Shown here piece after piece: positions 6,255 to 54,852 of a DNA stretch of 64,000 bases. The stretch comes from Ruditapes philippinarum (Eukaryota): assembly GCF_026571515.1 (NCBI RefSeq), contig NW_026854867.1, positions 62,001 to 126,000 of the forward strand, written 5' to 3'. Position 1 is the stretch's first letter. Each line of letters opens with the position of its first letter. The translations under genes were made by a program, and so were the position numbers. The notes beneath the pieces are model-generated. The model ran no database searches and was not told the origin of the DNA. It was given only the letters and a program-made list of their open reading frames with translations.

Positions 6255-7965
6255 ACTAGACCTTTGGTTAATCAGCTATATTTTTTAATGTAATTGTATT
6301 GATCAATTAAGGTTATATTTCGGATATTTATTTCTACACATACGACGCATACTTCTGTAGAATTTTATTCAAATCACATTTCGATAAAATGTCAAACTTA
6401 ACAGAAAAAAAACAGTCTTATAAAAAGTCAAAGTCGCAAAATGGCGGCAAAATAACAATGTGAAAAGTCACTCAACAATATCACTTAACTGTCCTGGTAA
6501 AACTCTCTGGTTTAATATTTAGTGTGACCACCTCTAGCTCTCAGTAAGTGAGCACATCGTTGTCTCATCGACATAACATAGTTTGAAATAGTCTGCTGAG
6601 GAATGTTGGCCCATTCTTGGATCAGCATCTACTCTAACTGAACAAGATTTGCGGGCGGATTCGGTCCGTTCCGAACACGGCGGCCAAGTTCATCCCACAA
6701 ATGCTCAATGGGGTTCATGTCCGGGGATTTAGACGGCCATGGAAGAACTCTCACTTGTTGCTGTCGTAGAAGCCTCTCCGTGGTCGCAGCTTTGTGCGGG
6801 GTCACCCCATCCTGCATCAGAACCATACCTCGCCCACCGGCACGCAGGTGAGGTATGGCCTCCGGAATCAGAATCTCCTGTTGATATCTCAAAGCGTTGA
6901 GATTATCACAGATGACTACGAGGTTGGTCTTAGTATTAAATGAAATCCCAGCCCAAACCATCACCGATCCCCACCGTAGTGGTCACGCTCGTGAAAGCAG
7001 CTGTCGTTTAAATGCTCGCCTCGACGCCTATAGACGCGCATCCTGCCGTCACTGTTTTTCAAGTTGAAACGGCTTTCGTCTGTGAATAAGACGTTGGCCC
7101 ATTCAGCACGAGTCATTCTCTGGTGACGGCGGACCCATTGCTCACGTCTTCGGCGATGTACGTCGGTAAGTACAAGGCCACGAAACGGCCTCCTTGCTCT
7201 TATACCATGATCACGGAGGCGATTAAGTACCGTTTTCTAGCTTATTGATCTGTTATGAGTACCTATCGTCTGCCTGGCGGTTGAAGCTGCAGTTCTAAAA
7301 GGTTGTTAAGGTGATCAGCAACAATCTGTGCATCTTGTGCTGGAGTTGTCACTTTTCTGCGAGGTTGCCTGCGCTCTTCTTCAACACGATCTGCGCGCTG
7401 GAACTTGGTGAAGAGGTTGGTGATTGTACAGACATGCCTGCCAAAAAATCGAGCAACTTGCAGAGAGAACAGAAGACATGCAACTTCATATCATATCTGT
7501 ACATTTTTCTAAGCTATAAATGCTAAAATAATTTGATTAAATATTGTTATTTACAATAAATTATTTCACGAAGAATGATTTAATACCATATTTAGATGAA
7601 CAGAATATTTCAATGATGAATACCTGTACTCGGGATGAGTCAGCCTGTAACATGCCAATTGCGCGAGCGCGTTCTGCATTGTTCATACGTGGAATTTCAG
7701 CAGTTCTATCACTTAAATGGTTTTGGTATGATTTTTGCTATAGAATACTGATTTGATAAGAAAAATCGATTTTGAGCACTGAATTCACATAATCTCGTGC
7801 ATAATTATAAAACTACACATGAAAGCATGTGCAAATTGGAATATCGTCACGGTCGATGATTTTCATGATTTTTAAAAAGCATTGGCCATGTAATTAATTA
7901 ATGCAAATAATAAAGTCCATATCTTTTACCATTATTGAATAATTTTAATTTAAAAAAGGTCTAGT
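6255..7965 (-). mobile_element. Tc1-family (DD34E) DNA transposon, defective
   Basis: TA|actagaccttt (6255-6265) ... aaaggtctagt|TA (7955-7965): 11-bp TIR with TA target duplication; encloses transposase remnants. Confidence 0.85.
6512..7695 (-). pseudogene. Tc1 transposase pseudogene, two exons (7695-7624 and 7457-6512)
   Basis: PRMNNAERARAIGMLQ...VARFFG (HTH), WANVLFTDESRF, VMVWAGIS, MQDGVTPH, WPSKSPDMNPIEHLW (34 aa between D and E), C-term RGGHTKY*; premature TAG at 6629-6631 and frameshifts near 6970 and 7295. Confidence 0.9.
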
Positions 7966-9666: not shown

Positions 9667-12600
9667 ATGACAAATATCAAAAGAGATAGTGGATGGAGTT
9701 GGTTAGTGTTGTTTTGTGTGGTTTGTTGTCAAGTTGTACTTGGAGGGATTTGCTTATCGGGTGGAATATTTTACATAGAGTTCACGAATGCATTCGGTGA
9801 CAAACCCGTGGAAACATCCTGGTTGTGTTCACTTCCTATCACCATGTGGTTTATTTCATGTGAGTCATTTTTCCCTTTCATAAGTGTAGCGAGACAGTTA
9901 ATGTCATTCAAAGGCAATTATTCGGAGAATAACTTTATAAGATCGATATATTTCGCTCTTATCCAATTTACGGCGTCTATAGCTAAATCTGTATATTATG
10001 TATTGTGTATGGAATTAAATATGTTTAAACATAATCGATTATTTCCTGGACATATTCATTATCTAACTTTGTGGATAAAGTGACTTCATATTTATATTCA
10101 CCCTTATCTTACACAGGCTTTATGTTGTCACGAAAGCTAAAGAAAATGATGTGAATTTGTTCGTTTACAATTCTTATCGTTTCGGTTCTCCTCCTTTATA
10201 AATTTTATGTAGTTAAACGGAATGCGAAGATATAAATAACCTTTTAAAAGGCCCTTGTACATGAAATAGGATATACTGAAATAAAAAAAAAGAAAACTGC
10301 AGTTACACAAGTATAGGTAGATGGATTTTTCTAAATTGATCGTAGATCTATTTGGTTGTTTTAATACTCTCCTTTTTTATTTACTTTTAAATATCTCACA
10401 ACTTAGGGTACTGAATATATGCCCTTGATCTAAATAAAAACGTGATATTTTCTGTTCATTTAATTTTAAAGAGAAAACATTTTATATTTTATGTATAAAT
10501 AATATAAATCCGTGGTAACATTTATTTTTATATTCATTGCAAAAGATTGAAATGATACAAATTTCTATTCAATTATAAAATTGTGTTAACCTGTGTCAGG
10601 ATAATTAAAAAAATCTGAAAGAAAACGTATTAATACATATATTTGAAATAATGCGGTATATATGCTGCTGAACGTGTGGACGAAGACCCAAGTTAGTGTA
10701 AAACATCGGCTCTTTCCATATGCTTCGGATAAGAGTTTATTGCGAAGCAAAATAGCCGAGGATATCAGATTGAGACCCAAGGTGTCAATCACTTTATGCT
10801 GGAACTTGTATTGTTGTAACAATGATCTACGTATAGATATTTTATATTTCAGCACCGATAGGAAGTGTATTGACAAATCGCTATGGCTGTCGTGTTTGTT
10901 CGTTTGTGGGAGGCATTCTAGCAGCACTGGGACTTTCCCTGAGTTACTTCGCTACAAGTTTAACATACCTTTTCTTTTCACACGGTTTTCTAACAGGTTT
11001 GTTCTATTGTCTTACAAAGTGTCTAATAATAAAAGTCACTAAAGCAGAGGTACTAAGGTGCATGGTTGCTATGGTATCTGTAATGGTTGTTGTTCTTGCT
11101 TCATGAAAAGTTAACTCTCAAATGCTTAGAGATTGATCAATCGTTGTAAATAATGTACAGGAATAGAACAGAAAATGAATAATGGTTAGAACTTGTTTGT
11201 ATCAATTCTGAATATGGATTTGATTTGTTAGATACATCTTGTCCATCCATACATAGTTTTGGTTGAGTTTAACGTCACGCCAACACTGTTAAGGCAATAT
11301 GGCGTATTTTCAGCTTTACTAGGACCATAATGGCCTCAGGCTCCGCTCTGGTCAGTGTTTAGGGACGGACAGGCACCTGAGTTGAACCACCGACATTCTC
11401 CATATATACATACACCATGTACCAACCAATTGTATATAACAGGTACAAAGTCTGTTTCAAAACTTTGCTTAATTGAATTGCCTTTTTAACGTTTTAACGT
11501 TTCAAATATGAAATACATGACTGTTATATTTTAAAGTATTACTAGTTTGTTAATTTATAATTTCAGGTCTTGGACTGGGTATTAACTATAATGGATGTAT
11601 GTCGGCATTGAACGTTTACTTTGACAAATACAAGACTTTAGCTGCTGGTATTGCATCAATTGGTCACAATCTTGGTCTTGTGATATTTGCTGATTTGATT
11701 TCTTTCTTGGTTGAACACTTTGCCTTGAAAGGAATGTTCCTTGTCCTTAGCGGATTAACATTCAATCTATGCGCATGCGCAATGGTAATGTTCCCGATAA
11801 GTGTTGAAAAATATGCTCAAACAGATCATTTTAGAACCGCAACTGTGATGAAAACTTCTAAAAGGAATTTTATAAACTTTTCTCGGTTTTTCTGTGTGGA
11901 AGTAATGTGTTTGTTAACTTAAGTCAAGGAATTTATATATTGCATTTACCGTCATATTCAAAAGATGTAGGTTTCAACCAAAATGACTTTGGAACTGTGC
12001 TCATGGTTTATGGTATATCAAATATCATTGGCAAAGTATTTTATAGTTTTTTAGGTCACCATCCACAAGTTAATGTAATGGCTGTATATACTATTTCACT
12101 TACAATGACTGGAATAAGTATGGGTCTAACTCCAGTGTTCCTCACAAGAACTGGGATGCTTGTGCTAGCTGGCTGTGTCGGATTTTTCTTCTGTGTAACA
12201 GGGGCATTAATCAACGCTATTGTCCACAGTATTGTCGGATTTAAAAGGTTTCCAGACGGGATCGGAATGTCAATGCCGTTTAAAGCAACAGGTAATCTCA
12301 TCGGAGGGCCATTAGCGGGTAAGCTGTTTTATGATATATTGTCTTCTAGTTTCATATCAAAGTTACTTGCTTTATTTATATTGCATAGAGTTCTTTATAG
12401 ATTGACGTTTTACTTTTCGTTGGAGACAAGTTCTTTAAGTTTAACATCTAAACTGCTGGGACAGAAACAGCAAAGCCTTTGTCATCAATGATGTTAGTCA
12501 ACCTTGGTGTATATGAAGCATGAGTAGGCTGCTAAATTCTTTCATCATTTAATTCCTTATATAAACTGCAGTTTTTTTAAAAAAAAAAAATCCAGAGCAG

Positions 12601-13535
12601 GGCGTGCTCAGTTTTACAAATACATGTAATTGTAAGAATTTTAAACATAAGGAATGAAAAAACTCTGAAAGTCGCCCCATCACGGCAAAGTGTAAGAATG
12701 TCTCAGACTTAGTTTAGTTTTCCGGTTTGTAAAACACAAGATACTGTCCTTGCCACCCAGACACATTCTTAAGTAGAATTCGATATTTAAATATGAAAAT
12801 GGTGAAATTTAGAATTGATTAAGAAAGCTGTTTCTATTTAAAGATATTGTAATGAATATGAATATGCGTTCATTGAATGCCCCCCTTTCTTGTTGATCTT
12901 GTTTTTCGTATTCTGAGATCGAGATAAATTAGCCTTATTTTTAAGAGTTCAGTGACCAATCATATGAAGAATACTAAGACTGTATTCCGAAAACTTACAA
13001 AATACGTGATGGAAGATAACTTATACAGCACAAGCAGGTATTTGTTTTGAGTTTGTTAGATCACGTGTACAAAATGTTATGAAGGAATGCTGCATTGTAT
13101 TTCGGACCAAAACTATATTATTCTTTTTTTTGTCCGAGATTGTATGTTGTAAAATATAGAAATGATAAAATAATCAAGATTTGACCAGATTTAATATCTA
13201 TTTCAGGTGTCTTGCTGACAATTACTGGAAGTTATGCCTTTTCATTTTATATGGCCGGTGTCAGTATGATTTTAGCATCTTGTCTTATGGTCCATCCAAT
13301 AGTTCATATAAGACAACGAGAAAAGAATCACAAAAACAAAAATATCAATATTGTTTGTGAACAGGACGTAGTAATCGACGGGAAAGCATCGTTTAATAAG
13401 GCAGACAATCAGGAAATAAAAGAGCATGATGAAAAACAATGCGAACCATTTTTATGTAATAATTCAAAGATGATGGACACAGACACGGGTGACAGAATTT
13501 ATGAAGAGATTCCATGTTTGGATAGCGAAAAATAA
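9667..13535 (+). CDS. Monocarboxylate transporter (SLC16/MFS) copy A; 4 coding exons; frameshift in exon 3 (possible pseudogene or assembly error)
   Basis: Exons 9667-9859, 10853-10996, 11567-12318, 13207-13535, all GT-AG with phase-1 junctions; motifs RDSGWSW, SPIGSVLTNRYGCR, YFDKYKTLAAGIAS, LIGGPLAG, TGSYAFSFYMAG; ~19-bp deletion vs paralogues near 11880-11890 shifts frame (ORFs 11599-11922 and 11907-12491). Confidence 0.85.
11262..11395 (-). mobile_element. SINE 3' fragment (mollusc tRNA-derived type) in MCT intron 2
   Basis: Minus strand gtcggtggttcaactcaggtgcc...aaagctgaaaatacgccatattgcc...tgttggcgtgacgttaaactcaac resembles the tail of bivalve SINEs (recognised from memory). Confidence 0.5.
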
Positions 13536-15032: not shown

Positions 15033-15764
15033 TTAGTCAGTCATAGTGCAATTTGCGCCACTGGTCATTGTGCAGTTTGTACCACTAGTCATTGTGCAGT
15101 TTACACCACCATTCATTTCGCACTGTTCATCACTATTTTGCTCGTCAATGAAGATATAAAGTAATATGATTGCAAGAATCAAAGAAATTAAAACACAAAT
15201 CATCAAAAGGACAGAAAAAACACGGTATGTAGTGGTTATTTCTTTTTTCTGACAACAGGATCCTGCCACTTTAGATACGACTGAGAAGTTCTTTTTCACT
15301 GTAAGACTTAGAATTAACCCAGCAGTTCCAAACAAACCTGATAAAAAATCATTTAAAGTGTCTCGTATTAGGTCATGAAAAACGTTAGAGCCTTCTGGCT
15401 GTAGACAATCAAAGGAAAATATTATCAATATGAGAAGATCCAGGCATTGAAACAATGACAAGAAGAAGGTAATTATCAATGACAACGTGTCGCAGTCGTT
15501 TAATTTATCACTTCCAATGCGTAGACTTTTACCAACAAAGACATTTTCTGGGACAGCAAAAAGCATTTTTCCTATCACAAAAGCCATATAGATCCAGGAT
15601 AAACTTTAACGTCCGTGTCACATCTTTTGATTTCAGTTTTTTTCAATATTTTTCTGGTTTTGACGAAGTTCTGAAAAATTAAACCAGTCAAACACAATTC
15701 CAACAATCGTGAAAATAATTCCAAACACGTAAACTGATATAGCAATGATTCTTTTTAACTCCAT
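15033..15764 (-). pseudogene. Orphan 5-TM protein copy 1, with +1/-1 indels creating a short out-of-frame segment containing TGA
   Basis: Colinear 732-bp paralogue of 23638-24369; ATG at 15764; extra T in the run at ~15637-15643 and missing G at ~15598; downstream 184-aa ORF intact. Confidence 0.75.
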
Positions 15765-16667: not shown

Positions 16668-18457
16668 AAAGAAAATCACCAACATGCCAAAAAGCTACAT
16701 ATTGAAAATATTATTTTTTATCATTACATATGCGATCCTTCTAGAAGTATAGCTTGTGATTTTCTTGCTATGAAATGGCTACTTATATGTCAAAGAGATC
16801 CAATCAAACCGAGCCTGAACACTTTTCAATGATTGACATTTAGGGTGAGCCTTTACGTTACCCTTTTTGTCTATTTCAAATATAAACCTATTGATATAAT
16901 TTGCATGGGGGTACTTAGACTTAGTCACGTGATGAATTTTTTACTTTGCGCAATTCAAAGAAGTAAAACAACGTGTAGGCAATTATTAAAAGTTGAACAG
17001 ATATAATAATTATAAACTATAATTTAGACCGATAAAGATTCATATTTATTGTGATGCACTTTCGATTGTAAATATACCACCTCCTCAAATACCATAGAAC
17101 GTCATGTGTTAACTGAAAAAGGCTATAGCAAAAATTATACGGACAAGGTTCACTTCTACGGTCCCTAAAAACATGAATATACACTTTGAGTAACTGGGTA
17201 GATTATTTGCGCAGAATCTTAGGTGTTGCATATCTTTCAAAGGCCGTTATTCGTGCGCATGGATGGGTGGGTGTCGGTACAGTGGATTAATTCATAAAAA
17301 AGATAGATGCAAACAGTTGTTTTCGTATATCCTTTATCATTCTGAGTAAAAGGTTTATGGCTTGTGTAAATTGTTTGAAATCTCTTGTTGTCGTGCTTTC
17401 AACTAGACCTTGAGCTGTCTCAATTTGAGGTATATATTCTTTCGAAGGAATATCTCGCAATTTGATTTTGATATCCTAGTATCTATTATAAGAAGATATG
17501 CATCACTTCGGAGTTCAATAGAAATTGACCATAAGATGTTGTATTTTTGTTGTTTGTTTATTCTGAGTCGCATCAATTTGGAGTCGTTTAAATATATTGA
17601 AAAAGTTAGTATGATAGCCATGTTTTTATGCATTACAAAATACCATGATAATACATTAAGATAGAATGATAGCTAAAACGGAAAAATTGAAAATGTTGAA
17701 GGTTCTGTTTTGTTGAGCCTGTTCATCGGAGGTAGTTGTAATGCAAACAAACTATTACTCCACCGAACACCAGCTTAAGAAGAATTCAATATCTAAATAC
17801 GATGTTGTGAAACTGTGAATTTAGAAACATCCGCAGATGTATAACGAGGTGTACACAAAAACAAGAATAAAGATCAACAAAGCAAAGGCAACGTTCACAG
17901 GACGCAGCAAACCTTCCATGTGTCACGTTAGCGCCATTCCATGGTTACCAAGTATAAGAATGCGTGTGCTCTAAACGAGAAAAGGAGGAAGCAATTTGCG
18001 AAACAGATTGCACTTGAATTTATAAAGGAAATCTGAGGTTATCAAGTCTTTGATTTTTTTTGTTCTGTGCTCATGTAGTCAATGGTTTTTGCTCAAATTC
18101 CCACATAAGTTCTTCCCATTATGTTGACTCCTATAATTTGCGCCTTTGGTTATCTCATGTCTTTTGTTGTTTGCGGTTATGAATTAGCAAGCCCGCTGTA
18201 TGAACACCTATAATCAACGACATAAAGCAAGAAGAGGTATATCCTTGTTTAGATAAAACCTACTAGCTCAATCACTGTGAAACTTCCACCCAGACCATCT
18301 TTCTCTTCACTTAACATGTAAAGGCATTTAAATGGTTCCCCAGTGGATCACGCTTAAAATTTACATTTTTGTGCCAGTTCGTGAAAAGCAGCGTTTGGCT
18401 TGAGTGGGACCTGAGATTGTAGTTACAATAACCCTTAATAGAGCGCATAAACTCTAC

Positions 18458-20233
18458 CGGCGATTGGCCCTCCAATGAGATTGCCGGTTGCTTTGAAAGG
18501 CAAGGACATCCCAATTCCGTCTGTGAATCTTTTAAATTCAACGATATCGTGAATAACGGCATTGATCAATGCACCGGCTACACTGAAGAAAAACCCGACA
18601 CATCTCGGTAAAACAAGTATACCGGTTCTTCTCAGGCACATCGGAGTAAAATCTTCCTGTTATTGCAAGTGATAAACAAGTAGTATATACAAATGCTTCA
18701 TTAACTTGTCGATGGTGACCTAAGAAACTATAGAAAAATTTACCAACGAAATTTATATTCCATAATTCATAAGTAATAGTCCAATTTCATTTTGTCGAGA
18801 CCTACCTCTTTAGCGTAGGAATGTTTATGTAATATATAAACTCCCTGGGTGAAGCTCATGAGAACATTACCTGCACAAAGAAAACCAAACGATGACTTTC
18901 TTAAAATGGAAATATTAATGCAATTCCTTTCGGATGTTTTCTTATAATTTACTTTTATATCATTTCCGGATTGTATTGGAAACATTACCATTGCATAGCG
19001 CTTAAATTTAACGTAATTCCGCTTAGAAAAAGTAACATCTCCTTCCAGCCGAAGTGTTCATCCAAAGAAGAAATCAAATCAGCAAATATCACAAGACCGA
19101 GATTGTGACCAACTGATGCAATACCAGCAGCTAAAGTCTTGTTTTTGCCAAAGTAGGTTTTCAAAGCAGACATGCAACAATTAAAATTTACTCCTAGGCC
19201 AAAACCTGAAAGCAGTACATAAATAAGAAAGTGCATTTATTTACATGAATGATTGCAGATTTTAAAATAAACAGAATCAGCATGTAAGTATTTTTTAAGT
19301 AGTCCTCTTATTACAAATCTAATAGACGAATTGAATCACTTGTGTTCGTTTACAAATGACCGCGGCCCAATATATACAAAATGTGCCAATTGACTTATTT
19401 ACCAATGAATATAATCAGTAAATAAATGTCCTTACGTTTCTTTAAACTGCAAGTAGCAAATAATGGACACTAATACTTTAAAGAAGAAAAAATATTACCT
19501 GTGAGAAAAACATATGAGAAGAAAACTTATGTTAGTGTGAAAATCATCTACATTTTGAAAAATATTTTTCGTGTGTTAAACAATTTTTATTATAATTATC
19601 ATAACATTCCACATGGAACACATAGGTATTTCATTAATTTTAAATTATTTTACCTTTCTATGCTTTTAAAAATATAAAAGTTTGTAGTTCAGCTCAAACT
19701 GTTGGAAATCCTTTTCATTTACCGTTATAAAACTGTATCTTTATGTAAAATTAATTCAATTAATCCAAGAGAACTTTTTCAAATGTAAATAGATGTTTTG
19801 CACGAGTATTTAGATAAATGAGAAAGCAAAGAAAATACATTGCAACAGCAACATTTCCTTTTTTGAAAATTGGAGAAAAAAAACCAACAAAAAATTAAAA
19901 CATTAATAAAAATAAAATAAAGAAATAAATAAATAAACTACAACAACAACAACAAATAATAACCTAAACAAAAACTGGAGATAAGATTGGAAAAGATAGT
20001 AAAATCAAAGCAAAGCAAAGCAAAAGCAAAAATAACTCACATGAAATAAACCACATAGTGATAGGAAATGAACAAAACCACGCTGTTTTCACGGGTTTTT
20101 CGTCGAAGGCATTCGTGAATTCTATATAAAATATTCCATCTGATAAGCAAATCCCTCCAAGAACGACCTGACAACAAATCACATATACCAATACCAGCCA
20201 ACTCCATCCGCTATCCCGTTTGATAATTGTCAG
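18458..20233 (-). pseudogene. Monocarboxylate transporter (SLC16) pseudogene copy B
   Basis: Exon 1 20233-20041 (193 nt, start reads CTG), exon 2 reduced to ~19535-19499 by a ~175-bp deletion that removes its acceptor, exon 3 19205-18458 with frameshifts (ORFs 18985-19236, 18767-18991, 18435-18641); exon 4 not found. Confidence 0.85.
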
Positions 20234-22775: not shown

Positions 22776-23637
22776 TTATTTTCTCTTTTTTACGCAGTAG
22801 AAATATGGAAAATCAGTACTTTAATTGCACATAACCGTACATCGTAAAGGTCCTGTATGTTTCGGTGTTATTATGTATCAAATAAACAATTTTTACTGAA
22901 AACATATATTCATTTTAGTTTGTTTTAGAAACACAATTATTCCAGGATGTTTGTATACCATTAATATCCCCTTTATGAGACACCTGCTTTATTTTTTCTT
23001 TCTTGTAGTATCATATGTTTCCTGTCATATCATATTACGTCATCAAATTGATTTTTAGTTTTATTCATAATACATGTCTTTTGTTAAAATCATTTCCTGT
23101 CTGGTTCAAATCCTTATGTCTTTATCTCGGCATTTCGTTATCTCGACATTTGTTGAAGATCTCTACGACTAAAAGAGATAACGAAAGTTTTCTGTAACTT
23201 CCATCGATAATTGACATGTCTTTGTCTGGTCCAAATTAAACATCTTCAATAACAAACTGTTATATTAATTTACTTCCACATTGTTTATATTTTTATTAAA
23301 TTAGATATTGATTGTAACAAAGTACACTGTTGATTATATTGAAATGTTCCAAATCTTCATCGTAAATGGCTTTCGTCAATAGCATTGTTACAGCAACCGA
23401 CATTTAAACATTAAACATCTATACAATATTGTAAACCACTAGTAATTTATACTTCACAGATACTCGATTATGATTTCCGGAATGAATACATGCCAAACAT
23501 TAAGTTGTCTCCGAAGAAGTAGTATTATGTTTATTACAACTACAGTAACATTACTTCAGTTTGCAGTTTAAGTTTATTGATAATGAATATATCCTTAGAG
23601 CCCGTCACAAACTCAGTGTTTGTGTCTGGTAAAACAG

Positions 23638-24369
23638 TTAGTCAGTCACAGTGCAATTTGCGCCACTGGTCATTGTGCAGTTTGCGTCACTAGTCATTGT
23701 GCAGTTTACACCACCATTCATTGTGCACTGTTCATCACTTTTATTTGTCTCAGTGAAGTTATAAAGTAATAGGATTGCAAGAATCAAACAGATTAAAACA
23801 CAAATCATCAAAAGGACAGAGAAAACAAGGACTGTAGTGGAAATTTCATTTTTCCGACAACAGGATCTTGCCACTTTAAATAGGGCTGAGATGTTCTTCT
23901 TTACTGTAAGACTAAAAATTAACCCAAAAGTTCCAAACACACCTGATAAAAGATCATTCAAAGTATCCCTTATCAAGTCATGAAAAACATTAGACCCTTC
24001 AGGCTGTCGACAATCAAAGGAAAATATAACCAGTATGAGAAGATCCAGGCATTGAAATAATGACAAGAAGAAGGCTGTTATTAATGACAACGTGTCGTAA
24101 ACGATCAGTTTATTACTGTTGATGTAAAGACTTATACCACTAAAAACAATTTCTGGGACAGCAGAAAGCATTTTTCCTATTACAAAAGCCATATAGATCC
24201 AGGGATAAACTTTAACGTCAGTGTCACAACTTTCGATTTCAGTTTTCTCAATGTTTTGCTGGTTTCGCCGAAGTTCTGAAAAATTAAACCAGTCAAACAC
24301 TATTCCAACAATCGTGAAAATAATTCCAATCATGTAAACCACTATATATAACATTCTTTTTAACTCCAT
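23638..24369 (-). CDS. Intronless orphan multi-pass membrane protein (5 predicted TM) with C-terminal NCT[MV]TSxA repeats
   Basis: Intact 243-aa ORF, longest in window; five hydrophobic segments; tail with 5 N-X-S/T sequons; conserved paralogue at 15033-15764. Confidence 0.8.
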   Translation of the reverse strand: MELKRMLYIVVYMIGIIFTIVGIVFDWFNFSELRRNQQNIEKTEIESCDTDVKVYPWIYMAFVIGKMLSAVPEIVFSGISLYINSNKLIVYDTLSLITAFFLSLFQCLDLLILVIFSFDCRQPEGSNVFHDLIRDTLNDLLSGVFGTFGLIFSLTVKKNISALFKVARSCCRKNEISTTVLVFSVLLMICVLICLILAILLLYNFTETNKSDEQCTMNGGVNCTMTSDANCTMTSGANCTVTD

Positions 24370-24907
24370 TATTTAATATTTAAACATGGAATTCAACAGA
24401 TACGAGAAGCGTATACAACGTTTGTGCAAATTCAGCAATGTGATTATTCAAATGAAAAGAGTTGTTATTTTAAAGCTTTATGTCTTTTATTCGTAAAGAA
24501 TGGAAATATAATGGTTTGTAAATAACCTTGAATTATAATACACTAGGTGTTAATATAGTTTAAATTTATTCTTATGTTTAAGACCAGGATTTTTAAAGCA
24601 TTGACGATGAAGGATATTTGTTACATTATTTTGTAAGAGCGTAGAAAATTGCAGTAATTAAAGTACAGACAAAAAATAAATATCCAAATACTACAAAAGT
24701 CACATACAAAGAAAAGAAACCAGATAAGTTATACACAGTAAACCACAAGGAAATGCAAGTATGATTCAATAAAACAAAGTGGTTTTAACTTGTAAGTGCA
24801 TTTTTTGTTGATATTTATTATCATAATCTTTGATTGAACTGTAACATGTCGAGCTTCTGTCTAATAATTCAGGTAGCGTTTGAACCCTATGCAGTAATAG
24901 CTTTGCT

Positions 24908-25945: not shown

Positions 25946-26860
25946 TGTTTTCCATATTGGCTACTTTGCCTTATGATGAGTATAAATGATTCTCAAATGG
26001 TTTAAATAAAAGAAATATTGTATAATCAATATAACACAAACAGTTTACTTTAACTAGTAAAACTCAACATAGAAGAAGTACTATAACATTCATATGGTTG
26101 GCCTATTTTCAATGATTTTTTGTTAATTTATACATTAACCTATAGGAATCACTATATATTATATATTATATGGTAAGACAAATATACACAGCTCTCCACT
26201 AATCGCACAACTAAAATATAACTAAGATCAAACACTGAACACAAAGACCAATGCTTTAATGTTATGCAATGCTCTGAATCTCTTGGACATTTATATGTAT
26301 TTGTATTTTTGGCACAAAGTCCCAAGTATTATATTAGTTAGCTGATAATTATGACATATTATATATGTGTCTCACCTTCCTCTTAGATGTCTCTACAACA
26401 ACTCCTCAAAATCTATATGTATATAGTCTATGTTTAATGAGGGTCCATCCGCCCGTTAAGGTACAAAAAGCAGCTTTCGCTGCCGAGTACGGACCTCACA
26501 CATGTTATCAGTCATGCCCTTAAAGAGTTTATTTTAAAGCACAAAGGGGTGATAATTTACCTCCATGCAATTTACACGGAATATTAGCCTCATATATTAA
26601 TATATTAAACTTAAAGTAGGTCAATGTAGCAGAAATATTGCTAGTAGAGGTTAACTTCTTCTGCCCGATGAAATTTGTTAATGATACAAAAAAGTGAGCG
26701 TGTCACAGATACTAAGTTGAGCTAATAAAACACACACGCACGCACGCACGCACGCACGCAAGAAAAACAAAAACCAACAAAAATATATTTTCTCTTCCGT
26801 TTAGAATCGTTTTTGGGGAGGCTATGCCGACCCAATGTTAATAACTGTCTGTCAAATCTT

Positions 26861-27247
26861 ACTGCCGCGGTAATCAGGTCAAAAAATAGTACCTTGATTT
26901 TTTCTAAGCTGACTCATCACTCATCACAGACATTTACAATATGAAAATATTTTCATTCTTTAATTTCATATCTGCAATTTGTAAAGATAATAATTCTCTG
27001 AAAAATTCTTGATTTTTGTTTAAATCACTACTCCGTGACGTCATACTGCCGCGGTAATCAGGTCAAAAAATAGTACCTTGATTTTTTCTAAGCTGACTCA
27101 TCACTCATCACAGACATTTACAATATGAAAATATTTTCATTCTTTAATTTCATATCTGCAATTTGTAAAGATAATAATTCTCTGAAAAATTCTTGATTTT
27201 TGTTTAAAACACTACTCCGTGACGTCATACTGCCGCGGTAATCAGGT
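26861..27247. repeat. Near-perfect 184-bp tandem duplication
   Basis: actgccgcggtaatcaggt recurs at 26861, 27045 and 27229; the two full units are almost identical. Confidence 0.9.
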
Positions 27248-30200
27248 TTAGGCATACGTACGTCTGTAATAAATAGTTCTGGTATGAAAACCCTTCAAAA
27301 TAATAACTTTATCCATATTTTTTTAACAAAAAGCATAAATGAAAATTTATAAGTAAATGCTTTAATTCAGTGGCAAATATTCTTTATTATTTTTTGATAA
27401 CAATTTTCCAATTACTACGCAGCGACCAACTGTTTATGACGGGTCATTAACTAGAACGTTGCAACTACGTATTCTCAATATCATGCATGTTCTTTTGTTG
27501 TTATAAACTATTAATAGTCCTTAATATTTTTTAAAGACAAATAATTGTAAACTGTCGCTTACATCAGAGACATGGATCATGCTTGCGTGATAACTAAGGA
27601 AAACTAACTTATTTGTACACCCCAGGAGGCTGTACGCGGAAAACGCTCATAAACCTCTAAATCATATAGCTGTTTAGTAAATATTTTGCATACATTTAAC
27701 TAAAAATTCACTGATGGTGATGAACATATAGTTCAAAACCATTATATTCTTTAACCATTATCGCCGAAAAAAAACTATTTAACTACAAAACCCCTAAGGA
27801 CCTCCGACAAAATTCCAGCACAATATTACATTTCACATTAGCAAAATAAAAAAAGCAATACTTATATTTTCATCTTAAATAATTCATTAATCAAACTTTT
27901 AACATAAAAGTATCTTTGGTAATTGACAGATCCCTACTCTGATCTTTTATTTGTATAGGAATAAATTTAAACATGTGCTCTTTTGTTTAGGAATATTTTG
28001 TAGTGAAAGTCTTATATATTCACTAATCTCATAATTAGAATTAGACAGGTCAGGAATTTATAAAAACAGTTGTTTAGTTAACTATGTTCATTTTAATCCC
28101 AATAGAAACATTCAAATATTTGTGGTAAAAAACATGACCAAAGTACCTAGTAGTCGTTTACCCGGTGGTGATCCCATTAAACTGATTATAGATTCGAATT
28201 GATTAGAAAACACAAATAGAAACATGTGTTTCCGTACAACAAAATCGGAAGTAAAGTGAACAGTTAATTGACAGAAATATGTGGTCAAATATGTTTTAAC
28301 AAGGAAATGATTATTTCAGAGAAAGACGCAAAGATCAGTATGACCCCGTATTGTGTAATTAGAAAGTTTATTCAATTCTAGGGCATACATCATAATTTGA
28401 TAGTCCATTTGTAATAAAATTCAAATTTTCAATACAGATTATGAGATACATAAAAAATATTAAAGAATAAGAAGCTTTAATTAAAAAACAAAAACAAAAA
28501 AAAACAAAAAAAAAAAAAAAAAAAAACGCATACATATACAAATTACTTACAGTCGAGCATCGGGAAGTCATTAACATATCTTACGAAACTTTAATTTGAA
28601 ACCGATATTTGCTCGCGCTGAAGTGATAAATGTTTATTTGAAAAATAAAAAAAAGAACTTTTATGGTTGTGTTCTAAAAATAATGGGCGGCATAAGAGGA
28701 ATTTCTTATTCATTTAACAACACTTGAAAAATTACTACAGAAAATGTGTTGTTGTTTTGTTTTCAACAAAAGTGTGTGTGTTTTAAGTTTATTTATACTC
28801 GGCGCCGGAATAACCATATGTCCGAGATTATAGCATCTGGGACGTCTTTTTCAAGCAGATTCTTCCTGGAAGCCCATTCTTCGTTCTTTGGTGGTAAAGG
28901 AGACGACAATACCGTCAAGGCATCAACTTTCTGACTGACGACAACAAAAACGGCATCTATTAGCGCCAAACATCCAGAGTAAGTCACGACAGGTCAACCA
29001 TCACCTCTGGTACTTATGATGACTTGACTATGACCTTCCGTGTGCCTTCTCCGCGACGTGCACGCCACTGGAGGTATTTGGAGAAGTTTCAACAAACACT
29101 TCCAAAACACGCCATTTATAACACCATTCATAGCACTGACGGCTTCGATGTTCTCATCTATTTGCGGGAAATGGTCGACAGGGAAAACCCTACGTAATAA
29201 CCGCACACCCTGTTAACAACAGATTTTCCGCAGTATATATTTCAAGCTAGTGAGGTTTAAAAATACACGTAGAATCTATCGATTAACTACCATAAGTTGG
29301 TTGAGTGTTGAGTGTTGGCGGTAAAAAAAGAAGATATAACTTCCTGATCAATTTTCACTTAGGTTGATTCAATTTTGAATAAGCTTTGCAGAGATGTATT
29401 TTTTCAAGAAATATTTAGCTTTAATATTATCCGACGCAATGAAATGGGATTAATTTTCTGAAACGTGATTTTATTCGAGATTTGCTTCTGAAGAAGACAA
29501 CCTTCTGTCCGTAGAGCATGAATGTTAATTAATACTCATCACAAGACAGTATCTTATTGATCTCAATTATGGTACATCTAAACGTGTATAATTTTTATGT
29601 TCAATAAAAAATGTTGCATCACTTGCAGTTGTTATTATCATTCAATAATATTAAAATGACATAAAATATTTATGATGAACAGTCCTAGAATATTTTGATA
29701 AGGAACCGTCAGTTGTAAAATGTTATTGTTATCTGATAATGAACAGTCGTCATACTTGCTGGTATGTCATTTATTATTGACAGTTTAGGTTTTTCAAAAT
29801 TTGCATGATTAACAGTCCGAATGTAGACCTTAATTAAATGTTCTGGAATATTAACAAAATGAATAGTCAACCTCATTAACCATATATATGAATGGTTGAA
29901 CACAACAGTAAGGATAAATAGCGCAATGTGCATATCTTTTTATTTTGGTAGCATATTTTAAGCAAAAAGAAAAGAAACTATAAGTCTGAAACATTCTCTC
30001 ATAGCCTCCCCATCAGTACATTCAGTGCTTTGATTATTGATATTGGTATTGGTAAGATATAAACGCTCAGCATTAAAGATATTTTGATAGTATACAGGGT
30101 AATGCTCATCTGCAACTAACCTATACAAGAAATAAAAATACTCCCTCCGGCAGATATACAACAGAAGCGTATACACTAAATTTTAGTAATACATTATATG

Positions 30201-30996
30201 TCAACGTTCAGCTAGCAACATAAATAGATAAATATGATTGTAAAGCATGATTTCACATACAATTGTCGCAGCACAAACGTAACAAAGGGGTTCGTTGACT
30301 CTGCTGTGAGTTCTGGACCTAGGTTAAAGGGTCTGTAAAAAGACAGGTTTGCGCTGCTCAAAATATTTATCCTTCACCACAACATTACCAGGGCCTGTGC
30401 CAACATTTTCTCAATTTAAGTGCGCATGCGTTGTGCAAATGACCGTGGACTTTGAAAAATTAACGAGAAAAGCTAATCGAAGAAATTGAAAAGGTTATAA
30501 AATACTATTATGAATAGGTGACGGCACATTTTGATATGGTGTCTGAGCTATGAGTATATGAGTCAAAGAAATAACTACGTAAAAATACGGGACATGGTCA
30601 ATAACATACAAATATACCAAGACAAACTCGGACACGAACATAATAAAACATACAGCACTTGGCAATGTATACCTGACCCTGTGACACATTGCCATAATTT
30701 GAAGGCGCACTATCTGCTTATGAATGAAACACATTCTAAATATTTTAGAAATCTGATAAGAAAAGGTAGGAAACTATGCAAATATTTAACGTCTCCTTAC
30801 ACCATTTTAAGCATAGCTCCTCATTAATAAGTTTGTTATGAAACGAGAAATATTCGCAGATGTGGTCATACGGTAGTGGAAATGACAGCTTATGTTTTGT
30901 GCCAGTTCATAAAAAGCAGCGTTTGGTTTGAGTGGGATCTGAGATCGTAGTAAGCACAGCACTTCATAGAGCACTTAAAAAATAAATAAACTCTAC

Positions 30997-32360
30997 CTCC
31001 GATTGGCCCTCCAATGCTATTGTCGGTTACTTTGAAAGGCAGTGACATCCCGATTCAGTATGTGAATCTTTTAAATCCAACAATACTGTGAATAATGGCA
31101 TTGATCAATGCACCGGCTACACTGAGGAAAAACCCGACGCATCCCGGTAAAAACAAGCATACCGGTTCTTGTAAGGAACATCGAAGTAAGACATATAAGT
31201 ATTCCTGTTATCGCAAGTGATACAGTATAAACAAACGTTTCATTCCCTTGTGGATGGTAACCTTAGAAAATATAAAATACTTTACCAACGATATTTGATA
31301 TTCCATAAATCATAAGTACAAGTCCAATTTCATTTTGGTCTTAACCTACATCTTTAGGATAAGAAGGTATATGATATATATAAACTCCCTGGCTGAAGCT
31401 CATGAAAACATTACTTGCACAAAGAAAACCAAACGATGACTTTCTTAAAATGGAGATATTCATGCATTTCCTTTCGGATGTTTTCTTATAATTTACATTT
31501 TTATTATTTCCGGATTGTATTGAAAACATTACCATTGCACACGCGCATATATTTAATGTAATTCCGCTTAGAAAAAGGAACATCCCCTTCCAGCCAAAGT
31601 GTTCATCCAAAGAAGAAATCAAATCAGCAAATATCACAAGACCGAATTATGACCAACTGATACAATACCAGCAACTTAAGTCTTGAATAAGTCAAAGTAG
31701 GTGTTCAAAGCAGACATGCATCCATTAAATTTACACCTAGGCCCAAACCTGAAATCAGTAATAAATAAGAAAGTGCATTTACACACCTGAATGATAGCAG
31801 ATTTCAAAATAAACAGAACTAACGTGTACGTATTCTTTAAGTATTATTCATATTACAAATATAATAGAAGAATTGAATTACTTGTTTTCGTTTACAAATG
31901 GCCGCGACCCAATAAATACAAAATGTGACAATTGACTACCAATGGTTTTAATCTGTAAGTAAATGTCCTTACTTTTCTAGAAACAAGTAAGAAATAAAGG
32001 ACAACAATGCGTTTAAGAAGAAAAGATTTTACCTGTGAGAAAACCATATGAGAAGAAAAGGTATGTTAAACTTGTGGCGAAGAAGCTTAAAGTTAGACAT
32101 AATGCCACTAGAATGCCACCATCAAAAGAGCATACGCGGTAGCCGTAGCGGTTTGTAAAGATGTGCTAAAATGTAAATGAAATGTAGTATTTATATTTCA
32201 AATGATTCGATTAATTCTGGATTTGTTTACTTTGTCTTTCATGGTGTGAAAATCATCTACGTTTTAAAATTAAAAATAAAATATATTTTGTCTAAAAGCG
32301 AAGAAAAAATACATTGGAACAGCAAAATTTGCTTCCTGAAAATTGAAAAAATAAATAAAA

Positions 32361-32391
<31 letters not shown>

Positions 32392-32655
32392 CCCAAAACA
32401 AATCTAGAGATAAAATAAAAAAATGAAGATAACTAAACCAAAGCAAAACAAAAACAACCAACATGAAATAAACCACATTGTGATAGAAAATGAACAACGT
32501 CATGTTGTTTCCACGGGTTTTCCACCGAAGGTGTTCGTGAATTCTGTATAAAATATTCCACCTGATAAGCAAATGCCTCTAAGAACGACCTGACAACAAA
32601 CCACGCATAGCATTACCAGCAAACTCCATCCACTATCTCGTTTGATATCTGCCAT
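30997..32655 (-). pseudogene. Monocarboxylate transporter (SLC16) pseudogene copy C
   Basis: Exon 1 32655-32463 (ATG intact, TGG>TGA at 32500-32502), exon 2 32165-32033 (133 nt vs 144), exon 3 31748-30997 with several frameshifts; exon 4 not found; introns align with copy B. Confidence 0.85.
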
Positions 32656-39825: not shown

Positions 39826-40590
39826 AAAATATTGAATTCTTTTGAGTACAACGCTGTCACAGCTTTGTTAGACGAGCGCTAACCGAGTCTCATATAGATT
39901 TTGCAGTTTATGGAATAACTATTGTTGAACTCATTGTATCGCATCAACAAAGTTGTCATTTTGACAGAACTGTGTTAATTTATTAACAATAATTGATACA
40001 AGAATTCATTGGTCTGCACAATATTGAATTCTTTTGAGTACAAAGCTGTCACAGCTTTGTTAGACGAGCGCTAACCAAGTCTCATATAGATTTTGCAGTT
40101 TATGGAATAACTATTGTTGAACTCATTGTATCGCATCAACAAAGTTGTCATTTTGACAGAACTGTGTTAATTAATTAACAATAATTAAATTCAAGAATTC
40201 ATTGTTCTGTACAATATTGAATTCTTTTGAGTACAAAGCTGTCACATCTTTGCTAGACTAGCGCTAACAAAGTCTGATATAGATTTTGCAGCTTATGGAA
40301 TTACTATTGTTGAACTCATTGTATCGCATCAACAAAGTTGTCATTTTGACAGAATTGTGTTCATGAATTAACAATAATTAAATTCAAGAAGTCATTGTTC
40401 TGTACAATATTGAATTCTTTTCAGTACAAAGCTGTCACATCTTTGCTAGACTAGCGCTAACCAAGTCTCATATAGATTTTGCAGCTTATGGAATAACTAT
40501 TGTTGAACTCATTGTATCGCATCAACAAAGTTGTCATTTTGACAGAACTGTGTTAATTAAATAACAAAAATTAATACAAGAATTCAATCT
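39826..40590. repeat. Tandem array of four ~192-bp units
   Basis: aatattgaattctttt.agtaca recurs at ~39828, 40020, 40213, 40406. Confidence 0.92.
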
Positions 40591-42339: not shown

Positions 42340-43385
42340 GCTACCTTCACAAAATAAAAGATCTCTCAAAGTGATCCTTTGCTTATATATCTTTTAAATA
42401 ACAAAAACTTCAGAAAAATTATAAAATAAAGAAAAAAAGTTGTCTGAAAGTGATTTTTTCTTTTTATATATCCTTTAAATGACAATAATTATCTTTAAAA
42501 CTTCATTAAATGCCGTTTTATTGTTAAAATAACATTTCTACAACATTACAATTTTTGGCCGTCAGGCAGCTGGGCTGCCAGGCCGCCAACTTCACAAAAA
42601 TGAGAAAATAAAAAAGTTCTCTGAAAGTGATTTTTTCTTTTTATATATCCTTTTAATAACAATAATTATCTTTAAAACTTCATTAAATGCCGTTTTAGTG
42701 TTAAAATAACATTTTTACATCATTAAAATTTTTGGCCGTCAGGCCGCTGGGCTGCCAGGCCGCCAACTTTACGAAAATTACAAAATAAAAAAGTTCTCTG
42801 AAAGTGATTTTTTCTTTTAATATATCCTTTAAATAACAAAAATTATCTTTAAAACTTCATTAAATGATGTTTTATTGTTAAAAAAAACAAAACATTTCTA
42901 CAACATTAAACTTTTTGGTCGCCAGGCCACCAGGCCGCTGGGCTGCCAACTTCACAAAAATGACAAAATAAAAAAGTTATCTGAAAGTGATTTTTTCTTT
43001 TGATATATCCTTTAAATGACAATAATTATCTTTAAAACTTCATTTAATGTCGTTTTATTGTTAAAATAACATTTCTACAACATAAATTTTTTTGGCCGTC
43101 AGGCTGCTGGGCTGCCAGGCCGCCAACTTTACAAAAATGAGAATGTAAAAAAGTTCTCTGAAAGTGATTTTTTCTTTTGAACTATCCTTTAAATAACACT
43201 AATTATCTTTAAAACTTCATTAAATGCCGTTTTAGTGTTAAAATAACATTTCTACAGCATTAAATTTTTGGCCGCTGGGCCGCCAACTTCACGCTGCTGG
43301 GTCGCCAACTTCACGCCGCCAGGCCGCTGGGCCGCTGGGCCGCCAACTTCACGCCGCCAGGCCGCTGGGCCACCAACTTCACACA
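42340..43385. repeat. ~179-bp satellite (about 5 units) with GC-rich core, ending in a GC-rich minisatellite
   Basis: ctgaaagtgatttttt recurs about every 179 bp; core ggccgtcaggccgctgggctgccaggccgccaactt; 43269-43382 built from the core motifs only. Confidence 0.9.
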
Positions 43386-53423: not shown

Positions 53424-54852
53424 TATACCCCTAAAAACGAAGTTTGGGGGGTATATAGGAGTCACCCGGTGGTCGATCGGTCGGTCGGTCCAGACGTCCG
53501 TTGCATTTTCCCTGTCCGGAGCATAACTTGAAGACTAATGGTTGGAATTCAATATAACTACATACAATGGTCAAGCACAATGAGAGAAAACGCAATGCAC
53601 AAGAAGCATAACTCTATCTTGAGTAATTACAGAGTTATTGCCCTTTGTTACTTTTCCTTGCCCTGGACATAACTTAAAAACTACTGGTTGGAATTAAAAA
53701 CAACTTCATACAATTGTCAAACACAAGAAGGGGAAGTGCAGTGCACAAGAACCATAACTCTATCTCAAGTAATTACAGAGGTATTGCCCTTTGTTACTTT
53801 TCAATTGCTTTCTTTTGTCCGGACCATAACTTGAAGACTTATTGTTGGATTTCATTATAACCTCATACAATGGTCAAGCACATTAAAAGGAAGTCCAATG
53901 CACAAGAACCATGACTCTATCTTGACTAATTACAGAGTTATTGCCCTTTGTTACTTTTCCTTTTCGGGGCATAACTTGAAAACTTCTGGTTGGAATTCAA
54001 AACAACTTCATACAATGGTCAAACACAATAAGGGGAAGTGCAGTGCATAAGAACCATAACTCTATCTAAAGTAATTACATAGTAATTGCCCTTTGTTACT
54101 TTTCCATTGCTTTTTTGTCCGGAGCATAACTTGAGGACTAATGCTTGGAATTCAATATAACTTTATACAATGGTTAAGCACATTGAGAGGAAATGCAGTG
54201 CACAGAACCATAAGTCCATCCGTAAAAAAGTACTAAAAATAGTTTTATGAACTTGAAATATGGGTAGATGGCGGAATAGAGTTTTCGCGCAACTAAGGTA
54301 AATGTCATTGTGGAGGTTCATTCTCCATTTATTATATTTTATAGATATAGATGTTGTGGTCTTGTCGTCTCTGAATGAAAGGATTTTAATGTTTCTTTCA
54401 TATATGAAATAACCATAGATGTAAAGTGTGTTGTGAATAAGACTCTTGTTTCTATGACTTAGGTCAGGTCACTGTGGGGGGTTCAAACTTTGTCAATTTT
54501 TATGTGAATATACATATAGGTAGAGATGATCTTGATGTCTGCTCTGAAACAAATATGCATGAAAAGATTATAGTTATATTTCATATATGAAACAATCATA
54601 TATGTATGATGTGTTGCCCTTAGTTCATGGTCACTGGGGTTTGAACTTTTTCAATATTTATGTTATATACATATAAATGGTGGATGTTTTGTCTGCTCTC
54701 TAACTTCTATATACATGAACATTTCAAATTTTATTAAAAAATATAAAGTCACCATAGATGGACAATGTGTTGTGAACAAGACTCTGGTTTCTTTGTCTAA
54801 CCTAAAGGTCACTGAGGGGGCATTAGCCACGTTCTGTGACAGCTCTTGTTTA
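53424..54852 (+). mobile_element. Helentron/HINE-like non-autonomous element with internal tandem repeats
   Basis: 5' ttatacccc...ggggtata hairpin followed by (GGTC)n microsatellite; five ~145/156-bp units at 53513-54215; 3' end gggggcattagccacgttctgtgacagctcttgtt. Confidence 0.7.

What the first reader, a model, noticed from the sequence alone, without database searches (positions are those of the whole stretch)
23638..24369. Orphan intronless 5-TM protein with a Cys/N-glycan repeat tail
Seen: 243-aa ORF with five hydrophobic segments, tail YNFTETNKSDEQCTMNGGVNCTMTSDANCTMTSGANCTVTD (five sequons, a Cys every 8 residues), one Cys each in loop 1 (ESCD) and loop 3 (FDCR), and a basic RSCCRK in loop 4. 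Inference: N-in/C-out topology puts the loop-1 and tail sequons and both loop cysteines outside and a palmitoylation-like CC inside, which fits a real plasma-membrane glycoprotein. I recognise no family; conserved intramembrane D/E residues (FDW, PEI, QCLD) are loosely reminiscent of XK-like or chemoreceptor/channel proteins. At least three copies here.
Basis: partly seen in the sequence, partly recalled or inferred. Interest (0 to 1): 0.7.

Follow-up and report, generated by a model that had tools for sequence, protein, structure and literature searches.

The report
Unnamed clam five-pass membrane family
This clam gene belongs to an unnamed family of about two dozen copies of a small protein predicted to cross the membrane five times, whose conserved charged core would likely bind or pass an ion or small molecule, while its sugar-site tail occurs in only one branch and is likely a recent add-on.

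Summary
The 243-aa ORF is real. It belongs to a single-coding-exon family with 24 loci on 9 contigs of this genome (15 intact), 32-96% identical; two paralogues are RefSeq 'uncharacterized' Ruditapes philippinarum proteins. A profile search of 1.84 billion proteins gave only 14 hits. dN/dS is below 0.5 in 12 of 17 measurable pairs, and contigs of four likely-RNA runs cover the ORF. Pfam, PHROGs, PDB, Foldseek and viral searches name no family. AlphaFold (pLDDT 81) gives a generic five-helix bundle. The family core is invariant C48 and C120 (likely a disulfide) and polar residues D26, K66, Q/E106, D135 and D139 on one face of helices 1-4. The Cys/N-glycan tail is a 24-bp minisatellite of one clade only. 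The window holds two copies, not three, and the second is frameshifted. Copies in two distant clades sit tail-to-tail with SLC16 transporter genes. An XK-like link aligns in register but is not significant. Best reading: a surface glycoprotein with a buried ion or solute site (about 0.4).

The parts
23638..24369 (-). Single-exon ORF, 243-aa five-pass membrane protein (P0001)
   Evidence: covered without a joint by contigs of four likely-RNA runs
24289..24351 (-). TM1 (about residues 7-27), ending in invariant F25-D26; the helix continues outside with N29, L33, N36 on one face
24226..24228 (-). Cys48 in loop 1, invariant; likely disulfide partner of Cys120 (inferred)
24130..24207 (-). TM2 (about residues 55-80) with invariant K66 and E/D73 on one face
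24016..24093 (-). TM3 (about residues 93-118) with Q/E106, D109, L113, S117
24010..24012 (-). Cys120 at the outer end of TM3, invariant; loop 3 (119-137) is 19 aa in 27 of 28 rows
23902..23958 (-). TM4 (about residues 138-156) with D139, G146, G149; D135 just before it
23761..23835 (-). TM5 (about residues 179-203), very hydrophobic, least conserved helix, little polar face; preceded by the basic Cys-rich loop 4
23644..23727 (-). 24-bp minisatellite encoding the N-C-T repeat tail; clade A only, variable unit number
23530..23578 (-). Two AATAAA signals (23573-23578 and 23530-23535); signals at similar distances follow L002 (one) and L003 (two)
15033..15764 (-). Second family copy, 74% identical, frameshifted in an A-run near 15640 (real or assembly error); 98.5% DNA-identical to intact L003
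14970..15032 (-). The tail minisatellite continuing past the stop codon of the second copy
9667..13535 (+). SLC16/MCT-like transporter gene, four coding stretches found (bounds approximate, splice sites not checked), tail-to-tail with the second copy
   Evidence: the C9907 paralogue hits MCT1 at E 4e-19
18367..20232 (-). Broken SLC16-like copy between the two family genes, part of the co-duplicated unit
30895..32655 (-). Broken SLC16-like copy upstream of the target gene

Best explanation
The ORF is one member of an unnamed clam gene family, and its product is predicted to be a five-pass surface glycoprotein whose first four helices likely enclose a buried charged site that would bind or pass an ion or small polar molecule. 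Shown: the family, its selection, its conserved residues and a predicted helical bundle. Inferred: N-in/C-out topology; a C48-C120 disulfide capping the outer mouth; D26, K66, Q/E106, D109, D135 and D139 meeting in the outer half of the bundle; palmitoylation of the inner Cys clusters. TM5 is likely a lipid-facing anchor that, in clade A only, displays a minisatellite-derived glycan tail. The family turns over by tandem birth and death, often copied together with pieces of a neighbouring SLC16 gene. The substrate is unknown; a small channel, carrier or sensor role is the committed guess.
For: Family and selection: 25 matches in the genome, which are 23 loci, plus one more broken copy; 15 of 24 are intact ATG-to-stop frames. 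dN/dS is below 0.5 in 12 of 17 pairs with measurable dS; target against L003 is 0.40 (Fisher p 6e-5). Transcription hint: contigs cover the ORF in 4 of 4 laid runs (4 studies; 1-23 differences; depth 6-15) while bins 16902-17468 and 18603-19169 are at zero in all four. Structure: pLDDT 81, pTM 0.78, five long helices. Conservation over 28 rows: F25, D26, N36, C48, K66, L113, C120, D139 and G146 at 1.00; Q/E106 1.00; D135 0.96; D109 0.71. Conservation and polarity moments point the same way in TM1-4 (32/45, 121/133, 163/168, 198/175 degrees) but not in TM5 (300/29). Topology: sequon-rich stretches arose in three separate branches, all on the predicted outside (loop 1 of L021 with 7, loop 1 of P0016 with 5, the clade-A tail). 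Loops 1 and 3 are net acidic (92 K/R vs 142 D/E; 56 vs 107); loop 4 is net basic (123 vs 64) with 64 Cys. Outer loops 1 and 3 are the constrained parts in clade A (pN/pS 0.092/0.270 and 0.060/0.442), which fits a fixed ligand or partner better than diversified recognition. Precedent for buried charged residues forming a transport path: Xkr8 (PMC8500837, passages).
Against: No function was measured and no homologue of known function was found. Buried charges can simply be stabilising salt bridges (same Xkr8 paper). Loop 2, predicted inside, is net acidic (52 K/R vs 78 D/E), and 16 sequon patterns fall in predicted-inside loop 4. D109 is lost in the basal clade. Five of 17 pairs have dN/dS 0.64-0.94 and 9 of 24 loci are broken. 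The regional pN/pS values pool six non-independent pairs. The runs are only guessed to be RNA and were picked because they hold this stretch. The best fold matches are soluble bundles (FTCD cyclodeaminase, Z 14.7, rmsd 3.5, 179 aligned, 8% identity), at the level the tool calls ordinary for helical proteins.
Confidence: 0.4

Rival explanations
1. A tetraspan-type scaffold or auxiliary subunit (claudin, TARP, tetraspanin or LHFPL style) with an added fifth helix; the buried charges would be structural and the protein would organise or escort another membrane protein.
For: Helices 1-4 overlay Cav1.1 gamma (Z 10.0, rmsd 3.5, 136 aligned), TARP gamma7 (Z 9.4, 3.5, 143), claudin-19 (Z 8.9, 3.4, 127) and PRPH2 (Z 8.8, 4.7, 168) in register from helix 1. 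N-in topology, inner Cys clusters and constrained outer loops fit.
Against: These Z values are within the range of ordinary helical bundles (note). One of 16 members touched the Tetraspanin Pfam model (E 0.002) and no claudin or MS4A model was listed. An invariant Lys with several acidic residues inside the membrane is more than such scaffolds usually carry (own knowledge).
Confidence: 0.22
2. A highly diverged offshoot of the short invertebrate XK-like five-pass proteins, acting as a stand-alone half-XK lipid or ion translocator.
For: The Atlas feature search ranked a 224-aa mollusc 'XK-related' cluster second (0.78, lead only). An intronless clam XK-like protein (L193/P0021; Pfam XK-related E 0.043) has a similar five-helix layout. 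hhalign of the basal clade against it ran 102 columns in register through D-W, the TM2 Glu and the TM3 Glu...Cys. Xkr4 aligns from its residue 106 (Z 8.6, rmsd 4.6, 171 aligned).
Against: hhalign probabilities were 0.15-0.44%. My profile-profile score of 12.6 was reached by 28-33 of 150 shuffles. The family HMM does not score XK frames. The family lacks the E-D/S-x-P-Q motif, the TM1 Asp pair and the two-repeat build. The positive control also failed (XK-like against canonical XK, 0.54%), so the test is insensitive.
Confidence: 0.17
3. A dedicated accessory protein of the neighbouring SLC16 monocarboxylate transporters, doing the job that basigin does for MCT1 and MCT4.
For: A tail-to-tail pair with an SLC16 gene occurs in two clades about 39% identical (window 9667-13535 with 15033-15764; C9907). 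The closest SLC16 subclade sits mostly on family-bearing contigs. Basigin chaperones MCT1 and MCT4 (PMC12053622, passages).
Against: Only 3 of 9 family contigs show an SLC16 match. The co-duplicated SLC16 copies in the arrays are broken or partial while many family copies stay intact, which points to hitch-hiking. Basigin is a single-pass Ig protein (own knowledge).
Confidence: 0.1
4. A diversifying chemosensory or immune receptor family of the non-GPCR, MS4A-like kind.
For: Tandem birth-and-death arrays with many broken copies; neighbours include B-box/propeller arrays, GPCRs and a Mab-21-like gene (labels from my reading of the frames).
Against: Outer loops are the most constrained parts and loop 3 length is fixed. 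No pair has dN/dS above 1 (19 pairs). No tissue data.
Confidence: 0.09
5. A transposon- or virus-derived, or non-functional, ORF.
For: No intron in the coding sequence, narrow distribution, 9 of 24 loci broken.
Against: Purifying selection. No match in BFVD at E<=0.001, viral contigs or PHROGs (0 of 28). Poly(A) signals after close paralogues.
Confidence: 0.02

Closest known systems
RefSeq XP_060595299.1 (LOC132749518) and XP_060586539.1 (LOC132742219), uncharacterized proteins of Ruditapes philippinarum
   Same: Members of this same family (they match L010 and L017); 39-40% and 31-35% identical to the target.
   Different: No tail repeat and no function assigned; the target's exact sequence is not in the collection.
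XK-related scramblases (Xkr4/8/9; PF09815) and the short clam XK-like protein XP_060607929.1
   Same: Charged residues inside helices; Asp at the end of TM1; in the short XK-like protein also five helices, D-W, a TM2 Glu and a TM3 Glu...Cys at the same spacing.
   Different: No significant sequence or profile similarity; no E-D/S-x-P-Q; Xkr9 has two four-helix repeats (PMC8298096, abstract and passages) against five helices here; an invariant Lys in TM2.
Tetraspan folds: claudin, Cav gamma/TARP, tetraspanin PRPH2, LHFPL4, sarcospan, LCI1
   Same: Up-down four-helix bundle overlaying helices 1-4 (Z 7.6-10).
   Different: Fifth helix, helical loop 1, Cys link between loops 1 and 3, 3-11% identity; Z at the level of generic bundles.
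FTCD-type cyclodeaminase five-helix bundle (1o5h, 2pfd, 7vg4)
   Same: Best overlay of all five helices (Z 13.6-14.7, rmsd 3.3-3.7, 179 aligned).
   Different: Soluble enzymes at 8-9% identity; read as shared packing only.

Membership tests
XK-related (PF09815) | Pfam XK-related match | tested here: not met
   Not listed for P0001 at E<=10 nor among the 25 of 30 families shown for 16 members at E<=1
XK-related (PF09815) | Two repeats of four membrane helices (PMC8298096) | tested here: not met
   Five long helices in about 205 aa; a search for longer forms found none, which is weak evidence
XK-related (PF09815) | Acidic path D26/D30 and E137/E141 with Q145 (PMC8500837) | tested here: inconclusive
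   One TM1 Asp and Q/E106 with D109 are present, but no second TM1 Asp and no P-Q
Short invertebrate XK-like five-pass proteins (L193/P0021) | Significant profile-profile similarity | tested here: inconclusive
   In register but 0.15-0.44% probability; within shuffles; the positive control also failed
XK-related (PF09815) | Shared fold | tested here: inconclusive
   Xkr4 Z 8.6-8.9, rmsd 4.6-6.4
XK-related (PF09815) | Phospholipid scrambling | not testable with these tools
   Needs an assay
Tetraspanin / claudin / TARP / MS4A | Pfam match above cut-off | tested here: not met
   Tetraspanin E 0.002 in 1 of 16 members; the others are not among the 25 of 30 families shown
Tetraspanin / claudin / TARP / MS4A | Four-helix bundle fold | tested here: inconclusive
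   Z 8.3-10, within the generic range
CALHM channels (PF14798) | Pfam match and a loop-1 to TM3-end disulfide (the latter recalled) | tested here: inconclusive
   Not listed; Cys placement is similar; no clam CALHM was retrieved for comparison; not in the top 50 folds
GPCR / chemoreceptor 7TM | Seven membrane helices | tested here: not met
   Five helices; Foldseek GPCR rows E>=0.056 with rmsd over 9
Basigin-type MCT ancillary protein | Single helix with Ig ectodomain (recalled) | tested here: not met
   Five helices and no Ig domain
Basigin-type MCT ancillary protein | Binds an SLC16 transporter | not tested
   The spliced SLC16 protein was not available as a single stored sequence

The most novel reading that the evidence does not exclude
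This is a previously undescribed class of minimal ion, solute or lipid translocator or non-GPCR sensor of clams: a disulfide-capped four-helix core with its own Lys/Asp site, possibly the most reduced stand-alone descendant of the XK fold, which repeatedly gained glycan shields from minisatellites.
Probability: 0.2. Interest if true: 0.72.

Novelty: new variant of a known kind. Interest (0 to 1): 0.42.

Why it matters
Small multi-pass proteins with buried invariant charges have repeatedly turned out to be channels, scramblases or sensors. This family is compact, single-exon, well modelled and has six obvious residues to mutate, so it can be tested directly. It also shows a minisatellite supplying a membrane protein with a glycan tail, with similar glycan-rich inserts gained separately in other branches. 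For now it is a well-supported lineage-restricted family without a demonstrated function, and genomes hold many such families, which limits the interest.

Tried and rejected
Sequence searches with no family hit: Pfam, PHROGs (0 of 28), PDB sequences. The homologue search gave 5 hits, all at least 63% identical; with the profile 8 hits among 7996 scored candidates; none among longer proteins, a weak test. The representative library gave 14 hits, all family members or fragments. Metagenome contigs and viral contigs: none confirmed. Foldseek PDB and BFVD: 0 at E<=0.001. CALHM, TMEM97/EBP, CD47 and Orai were not among the top 50 VIA rows; absence there does not exclude them. TTYH1/3 (Z about 11) was set aside because the match starts at residue about 120 of a longer chain and is out of register. 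Atlas: top feature scores 0.84 and 0.79 and best TM 0.56, all under the tool's bars. Homotetramer prediction: no answer, score 0.00, alignment not used; no verdict. Sequencing runs: no RNA holder listed on record, 14 holders guessed RNA. The SLC16 gene showed only scattered low-depth pieces and no splice joints; uninformative. A third copy in the window was sought and not found. A collinear three-segment XK test with unrelated membrane-protein controls did not run. Literature: 0 papers for the species plus LOC132749518 or LOC1327*; listings showed no title or abstract start describing this family (listings only). No supplements were searched, and expression tables there could hold these loci. 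Earlier findings of the scan: none by sequence, words or nearby place; the 8 shown of 87 genome notes concern other genes.

Full report
1. Observation. The ORF at 23638-24369(-) encodes 243 aa with five hydrophobic segments, seven sequon patterns and the quoted cysteines. The tail is a 24-bp tandem repeat of 3.5 copies. The window holds two family copies, not three. The second, 15033-15764(-), is 74% identical and frameshifted in an A-run near 15640, and its repeat runs on past the stop codon. It is 98.5% DNA-identical to the intact L003 on another contig, so an assembly error is possible, although L007 breaks at the same place. Two AATAAA signals follow the target's stop.

2. Family. The genome search gave 25 matches, which are 23 loci because two loci were each hit twice; one search added one broken copy. 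Of these 24 loci on 9 contigs, 15 are intact ATG-to-stop frames. Some are probably alleles: L001/L002 are 96% identical and C14218 is largely collinear with C3354. Five further genome searches with divergent members returned the same set, plus one weak row on C1866 (E 0.19, not examined). Two paralogues are RefSeq uncharacterized proteins of Ruditapes philippinarum. A profile search of 1.84 billion representatives found 14 proteins. Three unnamed ones (P0012, P0013, P0016) have no match in this genome above 49%, 38% and 32% and likely come from other species; their taxa are not given, so the family's range is unknown. The tree of 23 rows shows a basal clade (L017, P0009, P0012, P0013, P0016), a clade B of 8 rows, an L012/L018 pair and unresolved clade-A branches, with a long-branch warning.

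3. Is it a working gene? Of 19 pairs tested, 17 had measurable dS: 12 gave dN/dS 0.19-0.40 and 5 gave 0.64-0.94. The target gave 0.30 against L002, 0.40 against L003, 0.39 against L005 and 0.66 against L008 (Nei-Gojobori). Contigs of 4 of 4 laid runs from 4 studies cover the ORF at depth 6-15, one spanning 23478-24483 without a joint, while two unique flanking bins are empty in all four. The runs are only guessed to be RNA and were chosen as holders, so this is a hint, not proof.

4. Anatomy. Two AlphaFold models (pLDDT 74 with the tail, 81 without) give five long helices and a short helix after TM4; the tail is under pLDDT 50. Over 28 aligned rows the invariant or near-invariant residues are F25, D26, N36, C48, K66, Q/E106, L113, C120, D135, D139 and G146. 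In TM1-4 the conserved face and the polar face coincide; TM5 is the least conserved and least polar. Loop 3 is 19 aa in 27 of 28 rows. Sequon-rich stretches appear in three separate branches, always on the predicted outside. Loop 4 is basic and Cys-rich, and many N-termini carry CC or CxC. Against this, loop 2 is net acidic and loop 4 holds 16 sequon patterns, mostly N159 at the helix end. N29, N204 and N209 are too close to the membrane by the 12-residue rule (PMC3226467, passages). The tail occurs only in clade A, varies in unit number and shows pN 0.198 against pS 0.180 (pooled, non-independent pairs). It is therefore not the defining feature.

5. Context. The window order is SLC16 gene (+), copy 2 (-), broken SLC16 (-), target (-), broken SLC16 (-); the C9907 transporter hits MCT1 at E 4e-19. 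The same tail-to-tail pair recurs on C9907 with a clade-B gene about 39% identical to the target's clade. Only 3 of 9 family contigs show an SLC16 match among 97, and the arrayed transporter copies are broken or partial. I read this as an old block duplication with hitch-hiking.

6. Comparison with known families. No Pfam, PHROGs or PDB-sequence family was found, and Foldseek gave 0 matches at E<=0.001. VIA ranks soluble cyclodeaminase bundles first (Z 13.6-14.7), then TTYH, Cav gamma/TARP, LCI1, claudin and Xkr4 at Z 8.6-11, all within the generic range for helical proteins. I followed the XK lead to an intronless clam XK-like five-pass protein. Motif spacing agrees by eye and one hhalign ran in register over 102 columns, but probabilities stayed under 0.5%, my score was within shuffles, and the positive control failed too. 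Membership is unresolved, and the canonical XK two-repeat build (PMC8298096, abstract and passages) is not met.

7. Mechanism. Shown: family, selection, conserved residues, predicted bundle. Inferred: N-in/C-out surface glycoprotein, a C48-C120 cap, and a Lys/Asp site in the outer half of helices 1-4 that binds or passes an ion or small polar molecule (0.4). Buried charges do this in Xkr8 but also form stabilising bridges there (PMC8500837, passages). Rivals: tetraspan-type scaffold (0.22), diverged XK-like translocator (0.17), SLC16 accessory (0.10; basigin role from PMC12053622, passages), diversifying receptor (0.09), mobile or non-functional origin (0.02).

8. Novelty. Searches (listings and abstract starts only) found no description of this family; supplements were not searched. 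Labels for neighbouring genes other than SLC16 and the DDE transposase come from my reading of translated frames, not from a family scan. Verdict: a real, undescribed, lineage-restricted five-pass family with a testable polar core and a generic fold; interest 0.42.

Noticed in passing
window 9667-13535 (+), 18367-20232 (-), 30895-32655 (-); G000:C3354:139720-140550; C9907:29264-31872: A local subclade of SLC16/MCT-like transporters, with one apparently intact and two broken copies in the window, inside a genome with 97 SLC16-like matches.
   Followed up: partly
L193:1194-2129 (+), L196:1339-2796 (+), L199:1486-2649 (+): Intronless short XK-like five-pass proteins with a large C-terminal domain of about 280 aa (XP_060607929.1, uncharacterized); Pfam XK-related only E 0.043 and no Pfam hit for the C-terminal part tested.
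   Followed up: partly
L021:1369-2127 (-), loop 1: A separate minisatellite-like insert gives seven sequons in loop 1 of this paralogue, paralleling the clade-A tail.
   Followed up: partly
L017:1306-2052 (-), loop 4: A duplicated 14-residue acidic insert and a Cys-rich loop 4 (9 Cys in P0009) in the basal clade.
   Followed up: no
G000:C3623:46415-59262 (-): Tandem B-box/propeller (TRIM-like) genes beside the basal family member; label from my reading of the frames.
   Followed up: no
G000:C8311:83032-84471, C5854:61118-61612, C8311:158454-159083 and 171173-171871, C8990:15213-15845, C9907:17540-18151: Vanin/biotinidase-like and vWA-domain frames recur beside clade-B copies, suggesting these contigs are one cluster or its haplotypes.
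   Followed up: partly
G000:C9907:61888-63534 (+): A 549-aa single frame resembling a Mab-21/cGAS-like protein, about 35 kb from a family copy (recalled resemblance).
   Followed up: no
window 6629-6961 (-): DDE_3 transposase remnant (Pfam E 8e-11).
   Followed up: no
window 26860-27247, 39828-40586, 42433-43275, 53513-54220: Satellite arrays with periods of 184, 193, 177 and 146 bp.
   Followed up: no
window about 27000-30500: Long contigs of the likely-RNA runs cover this stretch at depth 50-350 with no ATG ORF of 100 aa or more; may be a long UTR, a non-coding transcript or a repeat.
   Followed up: no
G000:C3354:12040-20704 and 48458-48961: Helitron-like helicase frames and a NUDT9/TRPM2-like exon upstream of the window (recalled resemblance).
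   Followed up: no
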